DNA from: Minisyncoccota bacterium
GTDB taxonomy: Bacteria; Patescibacteriota; Minisyncoccia; Phycocordibacterales; UBA5272
Assembly: GCA_041651055.1 (NCBI GenBank)
Contig: JBAZJW010000001.1
Location: 242,661-306,660 of the forward strand
Direction of reading: 5' to 3'
Length of the DNA stretch: 64,000 bases
The notes beneath the pieces were generated by a model. It was given only the letters and a program-made list of their open reading frames with translations, made no database searches and was not told the origin of the DNA. The translations under genes and the position numbers were made by a program. Of the stretch, positions 59,241-60,201 are shown in pieces (position 1 is the first letter of the stretch; every line of letters starts with the position of its first letter).

Positions 59241-59309
59241 CAATATTCAATAAAAGGCTTTGTATTTTGTTTAAATATTGAATATTGATTTATTGAATAT
59301 TTTCTTTCG
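59241..59309. repeat. R2 AT-rich repeat copies (CAATATTCAATAAAAGG and GTTTAAATATTGAATATTGATTTATTGAATATTTTCTTTCG); the latter supplies the stop codon of the NusB-NUDIX gene
   Basis: The last codons KENIQ-stop of the 59290 ORF are the reverse complement of TTATTGAATATTTTCTTT. Confidence 0.65.
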
Positions 59310-60201
59310 CCTTCTCAAGAGCCTTTTCTACAAGAGGTTTGATGTCATCATACATGCGAAGGTCGAGCACCTCTTTCGCCTCGAACCACTTCGCATCGTC
59401 TAGGCCACCTTTGTTTTCTTTGTGTTCAAGGGTAAGCGGCAAATACTCAGCAGACGCCAAGTAATAACTCACATGCTTTACGATTTTACCCTGCTCTGGT
59501 TTGTTGGCAATGTATTCGTTCTCACCAAGCTTATCCAAAATGGTGACAGCAATGCCGATCTCTTCTTGTATTTCTCGTGCCGCTCCCTGCTGCTCATTTT
59601 CACCAGCTTCTATTTTTCCTTTTGGAAGTGTCCAGTAGCCGAAGACGTCGTGCACAAGTCCGATGTGAAGTTTATTGTCATGACGACTACATACGACAGC
59701 ACCTGCGAGAAGTTCACGCTTGCTCGTTTCGAAATGCTCCTTTTTACTTTTGGTGACCTGGCCTTTTTCTGGCTCACCCATTTCTTTGTAAATAGCCCCA
59801 AGCACGCCGTTGATAAACCTGCCGGATGTCTCACCTCCGAATGACTTGGCAAGTTCGATGGCTTCATCGATAGCTACCTTTGGTGGCACTTGTGCACGAT
59901 CACCGAACAAAAGCTCCGTGAGACCGATGCGAAGAATATTTCTGTCTACCATGCCGATTTTATCAAGTGGCCAGTCAGGTGCAGCACGAGTAATGATGTC
60001 ATCTAATGTGATGCGACGAGAAAGAGCGTTCACGACAATGTCTTTCGCAAAGGAAACGTCTTTGATCCCCTCACCGAATTCATCACGGTTACGCTCGAGT
60101 ATAGGCAAGAACACATCCATAGGAACACTCAAATCACCTTTCATGTCTAGTTCGAAAAGTGTTTGAAGTGCGAGTGTTCGTGCTATGTGCCGGGTACTCA
60201 T
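59290..60201 (-). CDS. nusB: NusB antitermination factor fused to a C-terminal NUDIX hydrolase domain
   Basis: NusB core ([29 protein letters not shown]) in residues 1-140; canonical Nudix box [23 protein letters not shown] in the C-terminal half. Confidence 0.8.
   Translation of the reverse strand: [303 protein letters not shown]

What the first reader, a model, noticed from the sequence alone, without database searches (positions are those of the whole stretch)
59290..60201. NusB fused to a NUDIX hydrolase
The N-terminal ~140 aa are unmistakably NusB ([29 protein letters not shown]). The C-terminal ~150 aa contain a perfect Nudix box [24 protein letters not shown] transcription antitermination factor covalently linked to a nucleotide-diphosphate hydrolase is not a standard architecture. 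It suggests coupling of rRNA transcription antitermination with nucleotide or alarmone turnover, or RNA 5'-end decapping of NAD/Np4-capped RNA.
Basis: partly seen in the sequence, partly recalled or inferred. Interest (0 to 1): 0.55.

Follow-up and report, generated by a model that had tools for sequence, protein, structure and literature searches.

The report
NusB with a tethered Nudix domain
In a very large group of ultra-small bacteria (Paceibacteria, part of the Candidate Phyla Radiation), the ribosomal-RNA transcription factor NusB carries an extra C-terminal Nudix domain whose closest studied relative strips protective groups from RNA 5' ends; the fusion is real, widespread and unstudied, and its catalytic residues are intact in this genome but lost in many relatives.

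Summary
Window 59290-60201 (minus strand) is one uninterrupted 303-aa ORF. Residues 1-141 are NusB, above the curated cut-offs of PF01029 and the TIGR01951 equivalog. Residues 163-303 are a Nudix domain with a perfect Nudix box. A disordered Lys-rich linker joins them.

It is not an assembly artefact. More than 8000 protein clusters and at least 598 species genomes of Paceibacterota/Minisyncoccota carry the same fusion, all annotated simply as NusB. The gene sits in a conserved rpmF(L32)-nusB::nudix-rnc(RNase III) operon in about 78 of 80 loci. The NusB half keeps the boxA/S10-contact residues.

The Nudix half is closest to Aquifex aq_158 (TM 0.88, 34% identity). That enzyme is an ApnA hydrolase recently shown in vitro to be a broad RNA 5'-end pyrophosphatase and decapping enzyme.

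Only 44% of 378 fusions keep all seven key catalytic-motif residues, and losses are scattered across the family. The domain persists even so, so hydrolysis is not the family-wide conserved function.

A boxA-like GYTCYTT motif is strongly enriched just upstream of the gene, which suggests autoregulation.

Verdict: a real, database-visible but undescribed variant of NusB. The most likely role is an RNA-5'-end or nucleotide-binding (here probably hydrolysing) module tethered to the rRNA antitermination factor. Interest is moderate to high.

The parts
59290..60201 (-). Complete nusB::nudix CDS (303 aa plus stop codon)
   Evidence: ORF list and sequence; Pfam NusB plus NUDIX; identical to public protein P0001
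59779..60201 (-). NusB domain, residues 1-141, seven predicted helices
   Evidence: PF01029 E 4e-30 and TIGR01951 111 bits against a cut-off of 88. PDB NusB hits: Thermotoga 1tzt 4.5e-19, Aquifex 3r2c 9e-18 over residues 4-140. Model helices H2-20, 28-42, 50-61, 63-73, 84-99, 107-122, 124-141, pLDDT mostly above 85. The boxA-U8 contact residues AaF122/E81/G78 map to F129/D86/G83, and F129 is invariant in the family. Coordinates checked.
59716..59778 (-). Lys-rich linker [21 protein letters not shown] (residues 142-162)
   Evidence: pLDDT below 50 for residues 144-152 and pTM 0.51, so no fixed inter-domain orientation is predicted. Net charge is +2 here and averages +1.5 in the family. GEPEK.Q.TK.K is conserved among close relatives. 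Coordinates checked.
59293..59715 (-). Nudix domain (residues 163-303) of the ApnA-hydrolase / aq_158 type
   Evidence: PF00293 E 2e-15. Foldseek: 3i7u (Aquifex aq_158) TM 0.88, rmsd 2.2, 34% identity; 1vc8 (Thermus Ndx1, Ap6A hydrolase) TM 0.85; also MutT1/Rv2985, CT771, NUDT2, the NrtR Nudix domain and Dcp2. Sequence alignments.
59551..59619 (-). Nudix box G195-I217, [23 protein letters not shown], canonical in this protein
   Evidence: Translation. E214 aligns with aq_158 E51 and Ndx1 E50, the residues mutated to inactivate those enzymes. Variability across the family is shown.
60206..60217 (-). boxA-like element GCTCCTTTACAA, ending 4 nt before the ATG, in the 39-nt rpmF-nusB spacer. Candidate NusB/S10 autoregulatory site.
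   Evidence: Weak in the window alone: 2 mismatches, and 11 window matches against 8.1 expected. But G[CT]TC[CT]TT lies within 40 nt upstream of the orthologous start in 23 of 79 species, against 1.8% of other ORF starts (p about 1e-21), and 0 of 78 before rnc or rpmF. The 23 species form 13 independent clusters. Published consensus GYTCTTTAANA and the autoregulation precedent come from PMC5725501.
60241..60444 (-). rpmF (ribosomal protein L32), first gene of the conserved operon
   Evidence: PF01783 E 2.5e-20. Immediately upstream of the fusion in 78 of 80 related loci.
58518..59213 (-). rnc (RNase III), immediately downstream
   Evidence: Ribonuclease_3 plus dsrm domains. Immediately downstream on the same strand in 78 of 80 related loci, and also in the most divergent fusions L084 and L086.
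57664..58470 (-). tlyA-like S4 plus FtsJ rRNA 2'-O-methyltransferase, next gene on the same strand
   Evidence: PF01728 and PF01479. Conserved in this position only in the closest relatives L001, L002 and L017.

Best explanation
This gene encodes the organism's NusB. NusB is the factor that, together with ribosomal protein S10, binds boxA RNA on nascent rRNA and nucleates the antitermination and rRNA-folding complex. Here a flexible, basic linker of about 20 residues extends it into a small Nudix domain of the aq_158/Ndx1 (diadenosine-polyphosphate hydrolase / RNA 5'-pyrophosphatase) type. It is expressed from a deeply conserved rpmF-nusB::nudix-rnc operon. Proposed mechanism: the NusB half docks on boxA RNA. 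The tethered Nudix half then engages a nucleoside-oligophosphate moiety nearby. This is most plausibly the 5'-triphosphate or an Np4/NAD-type cap of the boxA-bearing leader transcript; alternatively it is free Np4N. In this genome the catalytic motif is intact, so the domain would hydrolyse that moiety to a 5'-monophosphate. That would mark the rRNA leader, which RNase III (the next gene) cuts off, for 5'-end-dependent decay and so release NusB/S10. In the many relatives whose catalytic glutamates have decayed, the domain is retained as a binding-only module. The gene itself is probably autoregulated through a boxA-like element next to its start codon. Shown here: the domain identities, the reality and spread of the fusion, the synteny, conservation of the NusB RNA-contact residues, the identity of the nearest structural relatives, the mixed state of the catalytic motif, and the enrichment of the upstream motif. 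Inferred: the substrate, the action in cis on boxA transcripts, the link to leader decay, and the autoregulation.
For: Real and widespread: every one of the 120 best hits in each of two searches carries PF01029 plus PF00293, from NCBI, JGI, ENA and Logan contigs. About 58 full-length fusion representatives at 50% clustering reach down to 32% identity. At least 598 GTDB species genomes encode a relative, and the best 80 are all full-length fusions. Genuine NusB: the equivalog model scores above its cut-off; the model has seven helices; F129, D86 and G83 correspond to the Aquifex boxA-U8 contacts F122, E81 and G78, and F129 is one of only three invariant columns in the family; no second NusB lies in the window. 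Functional neighbourhood: L32 upstream and RNase III downstream in 78 of 80 loci, kept even at 34% identity. A Nudix-less NusB sits in exactly the same slot in L082, so the Nudix domain is an add-on to the operon's NusB. Nudix type: aq_158 TM 0.88 and 34% identity, Ndx1 TM 0.85. aq_158 converts PPP-, PP-, Np4-, NAD-, FAD- and m7G-capped RNA to 5'-P in vitro, and E51A abolishes this (PMC13145063). E51 aligns with E214, which is kept in 357 of 378 fusions. All 12 sampled fusions at 80% identity or more to the window protein, counting the window protein itself, have a canonical box. Flexible tether: linker pLDDT below 50, pTM 0.51. Autoregulation: the GYTCYTT enrichment, p about 1e-21, is specific to this gene start, and the precedent is PMC5725501.
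Against: No biochemistry exists for any member. At 34% identity to aq_158, substrate prediction is unreliable; the aq_158 paper itself stresses that Nudix specificity is hard to predict and that in-vitro promiscuity may not reflect the biological role. Catalytic residues are not conserved across the family: only 44% keep all seven, at least 61 state changes are needed on a similarity tree, and the weighted frequency of E210 is 0.40. A hydrolytic step therefore cannot be essential to the fusion's conserved role. No rRNA operon or leader boxA lies in the window, so the proposed cis target could not be examined. The window's own boxA-like element has two mismatches and is not significant by itself. 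Whether the genome has a second NusB, an RppH, or 5'-P-dependent RNases could not be checked.
Confidence: 0.42

Rival explanations
1. The C-terminal domain is a non-catalytic scaffold or ligand sensor, in this organism as well. It would be a Nudix fold recruited as a structural or regulatory subunit of the rRNA antitermination complex. Two precedents fit: SuhB, an enzyme fold used as a structural subunit of the rRNA antitermination complex, and NrtR, a Nudix-fold ligand-sensing domain fused to a nucleic-acid-binding regulator. On this view the intact Nudix box here is an ancestral remnant.
For: Only 9 of 58 representatives at 50% clustering and 166 of 378 fusions overall keep all seven key residues, with losses scattered over at least 61 changes. 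The domain stays full length and conserved where the box is degenerate: for example, Nudix-half identity is 0.70 against 0.79 at matched NusB identity of 0.8-0.9. The most conserved positions are W190, K194, W272, Y284 and G167 (0.91-0.96), not the catalytic glutamates. In P0195 the domain is so diverged that the precomputed Pfam annotation no longer calls it, yet it is retained next to rnc. The NrtR Nudix domain is among the structural neighbours. Non-enzymatic Nudix domains are documented (PMC5389931), and SuhB is described as an integral part of the ribosomal antitermination complex (titles and abstracts listed; PMC5725501).
Against: This protein and its 11 sampled relatives at 80% identity or more have a flawless Nudix box, which argues for maintained catalysis in this lineage. 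E214, the residue whose mutation kills aq_158 and Ndx1, is kept in 94% of fusions. No fixed interface between the two domains is predicted.
Confidence: 0.27
2. The domain is a housekeeping hydrolase of free dinucleoside polyphosphates (Ap4A-Ap6A). It would be fused to NusB only for co-expression in a streamlined genome, or to keep Np4N low near rRNA promoters so that RNA polymerase does not start transcripts with Np4N caps. It would not act on RNA.
For: The nearest relatives are annotated ApnA hydrolases: aq_158, Ndx1, CT771, NUDT2 and Rv2985/MutT1. They share the W-x-x-PKG strand and a conserved Tyr (Y230) downstream of the box. That this Tyr marks ApnA hydrolases is from memory and was not tested here. 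The flexible linker implies no obligatory structural coupling.
Against: A fusion made purely for co-expression would not be expected to keep the domain after its catalytic residues are lost, yet many lineages do. The fusion partner and both flanking genes all deal with RNA. aq_158 itself acts efficiently on RNA 5' ends.
Confidence: 0.2
3. The domain hydrolyses the alarmone (p)ppGpp and so links rRNA transcription to the stringent response, as the first reader suggested as one option.
For: General knowledge only: some Nudix enzymes degrade (p)ppGpp, and rRNA synthesis is controlled by ppGpp in some bacteria. No tool result here supports this.
Against: All sequence and structural neighbours are ApnA hydrolases or RNA 5'-end enzymes. 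The MutT-type models score far below their cut-offs. The variability of the catalytic residues argues against an essential metabolic hydrolase.
Confidence: 0.04
4. The fusion is an artefact, created when an assembly, frameshift or annotation error joined two adjacent genes.
For: One related contig (L083) is annotated as separate nusB and nudix genes.
Against: In L083 the 'split' is a single in-frame TAA at the conserved Tyr138 codon, and the linker continues in frame. It is therefore a fused gene carrying one nonsense change or sequencing error. Thousands of independent contigs from four sources show one continuous ORF, as does the window sequence.
Confidence: 0.01

Closest known systems
NusB (TIGR01951 / PF01029), transcription antitermination factor; structures 3R2C (Aquifex NusB-NusE-boxA) and 1TZT (Thermotoga)
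   Same: Residues 1-141 score above the equivalog cut-off and align over the full length to solved NusBs. Seven helices are predicted. The boxA-U8 contacts (Phe in helix 7, Asp/Glu and Gly in the helix 4-5 region) are conserved.
   Different: Canonical NusB is a protein of about 140 aa with a single domain. This one has a basic linker and a 140-aa Nudix domain attached to the C-terminus of helix 7, which is the RNA-binding helix.
Aquifex aeolicus aq_158 ('Ap4A hydrolase', renamed Omnivore RNA pyrophosphatase; PDB 3I7U/3I7V) and Thermus Ndx1 (Ap6A hydrolase, 1VC8)
   Same: Best structural and sequence matches for residues 163-300 (TM 0.88 and 0.85, 34% and 30% identity). They share the Nudix box, the W-x-x-PKG strand and the C-terminal helix. 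aq_158 deprotects RNA 5' ends.
   Different: Those are stand-alone enzymes with strictly canonical boxes. Here the domain is fused to an RNA-binding transcription factor, and in more than half of the family the catalytic glutamates are substituted.
RsmB/Sun 16S rRNA m5C967 methyltransferase
   Same: An N-terminal NusB-fold domain fused to an enzyme domain. The window protein gives weak hits to RsmB models through the NusB fold. That the RsmB enzyme domain acts on rRNA is from the family name and general knowledge.
   Different: The RsmB models score far below their cut-offs (48 bits against 319). The N-terminal half here is a true NusB equivalog rather than a NusB-like targeting domain, and the enzyme domain is a Nudix fold, not a methyltransferase.
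NrtR-type regulators (Nudix domain plus winged helix; 3GZ8)
   Same: A Nudix fold fused to a nucleic-acid-binding regulator. The NrtR Nudix domain, crystallised with ADP-ribose, is a structural neighbour. That the NrtR domain is often catalytically dead and acts as the ligand sensor is from general knowledge.
   Different: NrtR binds DNA, has the opposite domain order and belongs to the ADP-ribose subgroup. Here the partner binds RNA and the Nudix domain is of the ApnA type.
SuhB in the rRNA antitermination complex
   Same: An enzyme fold that serves as an integral subunit of the Nus complex alongside NusB/E-boxA, and whose own gene is autoregulated through a boxA next to its start codon (PMC5725501; PMC6614797 listed).
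   Different: It has an unrelated fold (inositol monophosphatase) and is a separate polypeptide. No evidence was obtained that the Nudix domain contacts RNA polymerase, NusA or NusG.
RppH (NudH), bacterial RNA pyrophosphohydrolase
   Same: This is the activity proposed for the Nudix half: conversion of 5'-PPP or capped RNA to 5'-P by a Nudix enzyme.
   Different: The RppH equivalog models score 17-30 bits against cut-offs of 116-259, so the domain is not an RppH orthologue.

Membership tests
NusB | Sequence match to the curated family models above their cut-offs | tested here: met
   PF01029 105 bits against 23; TIGR01951 equivalog 111 bits against 88
NusB | All-helical fold of seven helices | tested here: met
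NusB | Conserved boxA RNA / NusE interface residues (Aquifex F122, E81, G78) | tested here: met
   They map to F129 (invariant in the family), D86 (0.95) and G83. AaK118 and AaS128 are not conserved (T125 and G135).
NusB | Binds S10 (NusE) and boxA RNA; supports antitermination | not testable with these tools
   Indirect support only: a boxA-like motif is enriched upstream of the gene in 23 of 79 species.
NusB | It is the genome's NusB (no separate canonical copy) | tested here: inconclusive
   No second NusB in the 64-kb window, and a Nudix-less NusB occupies the same rpmF-x-rnc slot in L082. The rest of the 775-kb genome could not be read.
Nudix hydrolase superfamily | Nudix box GX5EX7REUXEEXGU | tested here: met
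   Exact match at residues 195-217 in the window protein. In the wider fusion family only 166 of 378 keep all seven key residues.
Nudix hydrolase superfamily | Nudix alpha/beta/alpha fold | tested here: met
   PF00293 57 bits against 21. Foldseek TM 0.88 and rmsd 2.2 to 3i7u.
Nudix hydrolase superfamily | Mg-dependent pyrophosphohydrolase activity | not testable with these tools
   No biochemical data exist for any member, and none was found in the literature.
ApnA hydrolase / aq_158-type RNA 5'-pyrophosphatase subgroup | Closest sequence and structure relatives belong to this subgroup | tested here: met
   aq_158, Ndx1, MutT1/Rv2985, CT771 and NUDT2 top both searches.
ApnA hydrolase / aq_158-type RNA 5'-pyrophosphatase subgroup | Hydrolysis of ApnA or deprotection of RNA 5' ends | not testable with these tools
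   The activity is known for aq_158 only (PMC13145063). At 34% identity the transfer of function is tentative.
RppH | Match to the RppH equivalog models | tested here: not met
   NF001936 and related models score 17-30 bits against cut-offs of 116-259.
MutT (8-oxo-dGTPase) | Match to the MutT equivalog models | tested here: not met
   TIGR00586 28.7 bits against 97.9; NF008044 31.8 bits against 148.
RsmB/Sun | NusB-like N-terminal domain plus a C-terminal methyltransferase domain | tested here: not met
   Only the NusB-fold part matches (48 bits against 319), and there is no methyltransferase domain.

The most novel reading that the evidence does not exclude
The NusB-S10-boxA complex of Paceibacteria is a co-transcriptional RNA 5'-end processing device. 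By tethering an aq_158-like pyrophosphatase or cap-binding module to the boxA-bound factor, the cell recognises the 5'-triphosphate or a non-canonical cap of the nascent pre-rRNA leader, and where the domain is catalytically competent it removes that group. This would couple antitermination to RNase III cleavage, leader decay and recycling of NusB/S10. It would be the first case of 5'-end deprotection built into a bacterial transcription elongation complex. The lineages with a degenerate box would represent a cap-reader version of the same machine.
Probability: 0.2. Interest if true: 0.8.

Novelty: new variant of a known kind. Interest (0 to 1): 0.55.

Why it matters
NusB is one of the most conserved bacterial transcription factors and is normally a single small domain. 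An entire major radiation of bacteria with reduced genomes (at least 598 species-level genomes) has replaced it with a NusB-Nudix fusion, locked between the L32 and RNase III genes. That implies an unrecognised step in rRNA synthesis or maturation in these organisms.

Two things are directly testable:
- **Whether a Nus complex can carry an RNA 5'-end deprotecting or reading activity.** This would link the new field of bacterial non-canonical RNA caps to rRNA biogenesis.
- **How a Nudix enzyme becomes a pseudo-enzyme.** The family offers dozens of natural active-looking and inactive-looking pairs at 75-80% identity.

There is also an annotation point. All these proteins are labelled only 'NusB', which hides the second domain.

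Tried and rejected
- **Assembly or annotation artefact.** Rejected, because continuous ORFs occur on thousands of contigs.
- **An ancestral two-gene state in L083.** Rejected. It is a single in-frame TAA at the Tyr138 codon of a fused gene.
- **Stand-alone Nudix relatives lying next to nusB.** The one with usable context (P0250, L081) sits among integrase, methylase and replication genes, unrelated to nusB.
- **Taxonomic names for the most divergent fusions and the stand-alone relatives.** The cluster look-ups returned almost no names.
- **Genome-collection scan with the very diverse alignment A2.** It failed for lack of a conserved stretch. It was rerun with A3.
- **boxA in the window as a whole.** Not enriched: 11 matches against 8.1 expected. 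There is no rRNA operon in the window, only one tRNA, so a leader boxA could not be examined.
- **A second NusB or Nudix gene in the window.** None found.
- **Literature searches for any prior description of the fusion.** Nothing relevant was found.
- **MutT, RppH, NudC or RsmB membership.** Rejected on the curated cut-offs.
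Full report
**1. Observation**

Window 59290-60201 holds a single ATG-initiated ORF of 303 codons on the minus strand, with no internal stop or frameshift.
- Pfam calls NusB (PF01029) at residues 6-139 (E 4e-30) and NUDIX (PF00293) at residues 175-292 (E 2e-15). Both are far above the gathering cut-offs.
- The NCBIfam NusB equivalog TIGR01951 scores 111 bits against a cut-off of 88.
- The Nudix box [23 protein letters not shown] (59551-59619) fits GX5EX7REUXEEXGU exactly.

The only addition is that the gene is on the minus strand.

**2. The fusion is real and very common in one clade**

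The protein is identical to a public NCBI protein from a 775-kb 'Candidatus Paceibacterota bacterium' contig.
- All 120 best hits (71-100% identity) from NCBI, JGI, ENA and Logan assemblies carry both Pfam domains.
- A profile search with diverse members returned at least 8000 clusters at 90% identity. All of the best 120 have two domains. Sources name them only 'NusB' and assign them to Nomurabacteria, Moranbacteria, Paceibacterota, Minisyncoccia and the Patescibacteria group.
- An exhaustive search of representatives at 50% identity found about 58 full-length fusion clusters, down to 32% identity.
The best 80 are all full-length fusions, from Paceibacterota, Parcubacteria, Nomura-, Kaiser-, Zambryski-, Vogel- and Giovannonibacteria.
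- NCBI taxonomy places 'Ca. Paceibacterota' in the phylum Minisyncoccota.

The one apparently split gene pair (L083) is a fused gene interrupted by a single in-frame TAA at the conserved Tyr138 codon. The artefact hypothesis is refuted. So is the idea that the architecture is rare. It is, however, undescribed: five literature searches and the large Nudix-clan survey gave nothing.

**3. Genomic context**

In the window the gene lies between rpmF (L32, 60241-60444) and rnc (RNase III, 58518-59213), followed by a tlyA-like rRNA methyltransferase. All are on the minus strand.
- Across the 80 species loci, L32 is immediately upstream in 78 and RNase III immediately downstream in 78. The exceptions are mostly at contig ends.
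- RNase III still follows the gene directly in the most divergent fusions, at 34% identity (L084, L086).
- A related contig (L082) has rpmF - nusB (140 aa, no Nudix) - rnc - rpsP.

The ancestral unit is therefore rpmF-nusB-rnc, and the Nudix domain is an addition to that operon's NusB. No second NusB or Nudix gene occurs in the window, and no rRNA gene either.

**4. The NusB half**

The model predicts seven helices between residues 2 and 141 with high confidence. The sequence aligns along its whole length with Aquifex NusB (E 9e-18).

The Aquifex NusB-NusE-boxA structure paper names three residues. F122 stacks on boxA U8, and the F122D mutant is defective. E81 and G78 recognise U8, and E81 also contacts NusE H15 (PMC3177189). 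Through the alignment these map to F129, D86 and G83. F129 is one of only three invariant columns in 52 diverse fusions, and D86 has a weighted frequency of 0.95. The NusB half thus looks fully functional.

**5. The Nudix half**

By sequence and by fold, the nearest solved proteins are:
- Aquifex aq_158 'Ap4A hydrolase' (3I7U; TM 0.88, rmsd 2.2, 34% identity)
- Thermus Ndx1 Ap6A hydrolase (TM 0.85)
- the MutT1/Rv2985 diadenosine polyphosphatase domain
- Chlamydia CT771
- NUDT2
- further down the list, the NrtR Nudix domain and Dcp2

The MutT, RppH, NudC and other equivalog models are far below their cut-offs.

A 2026 paper shows that aq_158 efficiently converts 5'-triphosphate, 5'-diphosphate, m7Gp3, Np4, NAD, FAD and sugar caps on RNA to a 5'-monophosphate. 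The E51A mutation inactivates it (PMC13145063). E51 aligns with E214 of the window protein.

**6. An unexpected feature: the catalytic motif is not conserved in the family**

| Sample | Fusions keeping all seven key positions (G195, E201, R209, E210, E213, E214, G216) |
|---|---|
| Close homologues | 55 of 120 |
| Profile hits | 73 of 120 |
| GTDB species | 29 of 80 |
| Representatives at 50% clustering | 9 of 58 |
| Total | 166 of 378 (44%) |

- Typical variants of the REUXEE segment are RELKKE and RKIE[AKQS]E. In divergent members it reads RIVKKE, AALKKE, SYAKEM or DILKRK.
- On a similarity tree at least 61 switches between canonical and non-canonical states are needed.
- Weighted residue frequencies at the catalytic positions are E210 0.40, E213 0.62, R209 0.71 and E214 0.79. 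At non-catalytic positions they are W190 0.96, K194 0.95, W272 0.93 and Y284 0.91.
- The domain is nevertheless retained at full length and remains conserved where the box is degenerate. This holds even where the precomputed Pfam annotation no longer detects it (P0195).
- By contrast, the 12 sampled fusions at 80% identity or more to the window protein, counting the window protein itself, all have a canonical box.

The reading is as follows. In this lineage the domain is probably still an enzyme. Across the family, the selected property is something other than hydrolysis, most simply binding.

**7. Architecture**

The two domains are joined by [21 protein letters not shown]. This linker is predicted to be disordered (pLDDT below 50), and a pTM of 0.51 means no fixed orientation is predicted. 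It has a net positive charge. It leaves the C-terminus of helix 7, the helix along which the structure paper locates the conserved boxA-binding site. The Nudix domain is therefore a flexibly tethered module held close to the bound RNA.

**8. A second finding: a boxA-like element in front of the gene**

The 39-nt rpmF-nusB spacer contains GCTCCTTTACAA, ending 4 nt before the ATG (60206-60217). This is not significant on its own. In the 80 species loci, however:
- G[CT]TC[CT]TT occurs within 40 nt upstream of the orthologous start codon in 23 of 79. The rate is 1.8% for 725 other ORF starts and 1.7% for random windows (binomial p about 1e-21).
- GTTCTTT occurs in 17 of 79 against 0.4% (p about 2e-24).
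- It occurs 0 times in 78 before rnc and 0 times in 78 before rpmF.
- The 23 positive species form 13 clusters at 70% or more protein identity. The motif mostly starts 7-17 nt before the ATG and sometimes abuts it.

The published boxA search consensus is GYTCTTTAANA within 50 nt of a start codon. NusB/E binding to such a site represses suhB translation, and autoregulation of nusE and ribH-nusB has been proposed (PMC5725501). This suggests that the fusion gene is autoregulated by its own product together with S10. It also independently supports the view that the product is a working boxA-binding NusB.

**9. Mechanism**

*Best-supported model (overall confidence about 0.4; the descriptive core is above 0.9).* The protein is the cell's NusB. 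Its tethered aq_158-type Nudix module engages a nucleoside-oligophosphate group near the boxA-bound complex. This is most plausibly the 5'-PPP or a non-canonical cap of the boxA-bearing leader. In this genome the module hydrolyses that group to 5'-P, which assists removal of the leader released by RNase III and recycling of NusB/S10. In lineages with a degenerate box it only binds.

*Rivals.*
- A purely non-catalytic scaffold or sensor, by analogy with SuhB or NrtR: 0.27.
- A housekeeping hydrolase of free ApnA, fused for co-expression or to clear cap precursors locally: 0.20.
- A (p)ppGpp hydrolase: 0.04.
- An artefact: 0.01.

*What is shown and what is inferred.* The substrate, the action in cis and the link to leader decay are inferences. 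The domain identities, spread, synteny, residue conservation, motif decay and upstream-motif enrichment are shown.

**10. Comparison and novelty**

The N-terminal half is a member of the NusB family, since all testable defining features are met. The C-terminal half is a member of the Nudix superfamily of the ApnA-hydrolase/aq_158 type. It is not RppH, MutT or RsmB.

The combination resembles RsmB (a NusB fold plus an enzyme domain) and NrtR (a Nudix fold plus a nucleic-acid-binding domain) in principle, but it is neither.

It is visible in databases only as 'NusB', and no description was found in the literature. I rate it a new variant of a known kind, with interest 0.55. It is surprising to a transcription specialist, large in phylogenetic scope, and directly testable given the recent aq_158 biochemistry. 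It has no experimental support yet, and the family-level evidence shows that catalysis is dispensable.

Noticed in passing
window 60206-60217 (-), and L001-L080 upstream of the fusion start: A boxA-like GYTCYTT motif lies directly upstream of the nusB::nudix start codon. It occurs in 23 of 79 species against 1.8% of other gene starts (p about 1e-21), and never before rnc or rpmF. This suggests NusB/S10 autoregulation, as described for suhB in E. coli.
   Followed up: yes
window 60532-61224 (-), with palindromes at 60509-60554 and 61258-61276: A 230-aa ORF with a weak IS200-like Y1 transposase match (E 1e-4, just below the Pfam cut-off). It is flanked on both sides by GC-rich palindromes sharing the core ACAAGGCGAGGCCTTGTAG, one with a perfect 20-bp stem. 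The arrangement resembles a REP/RAYT-type element in a CPR genome. Y1-like hits also lie near the fusion in L001, L040 and L078.
   Followed up: no
L086 4001-4900 (NCBI GCA_054047225.1, JBPLFY010000016.1): A divergent NusB-Nudix homologue (P0230) has two in-frame TGA codons, both at near-invariant Trp columns of the family (W190 and W272). This lineage appears to read TGA as a sense codon, apparently Trp rather than the Gly of genetic code 25. Only two sites were seen, and other genes were not checked.
   Followed up: partly
L083 941-943 (NCBI GCA_013565675.1, JACCDV010735530.1): The fusion gene is annotated as separate nusB and nudix genes because of one in-frame TAA at the conserved Tyr138 codon. 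This is a nonsense mutation or a sequencing error. The Nudix box in this copy is already degenerate (RSVKEK).
   Followed up: yes
L081 6001-6453: A stand-alone Nudix protein (P0250, 150 aa, canonical box, 43% identical to the fusion's Nudix half) sits among integrase, DNA methylase and replication-protein genes. That is a phage-like or mobile context with no nusB nearby.
   Followed up: no
window 61291-63420 (-): A 709-aa protein with an N-terminal hydrophobic segment and three long, near-identical Laminin_G_3 (LamG/concanavalin-like) repeats. It is likely a surface protein of this small-celled bacterium.
   Followed up: no
window 57317-57598 (+): A 93-aa single-domain RRM_1 RNA-binding protein is encoded divergently next to the rRNA-related operon. 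The same protein lies near the operon in L002.
   Followed up: no
L002, L004-L006 and many other loci: Many genome records titled 'uncultured Candidatus Saccharibacteria bacterium' carry the Paceibacteria-type fusion and operon. These titles look like generic or incorrect taxonomic labels for the assemblies.
   Followed up: no
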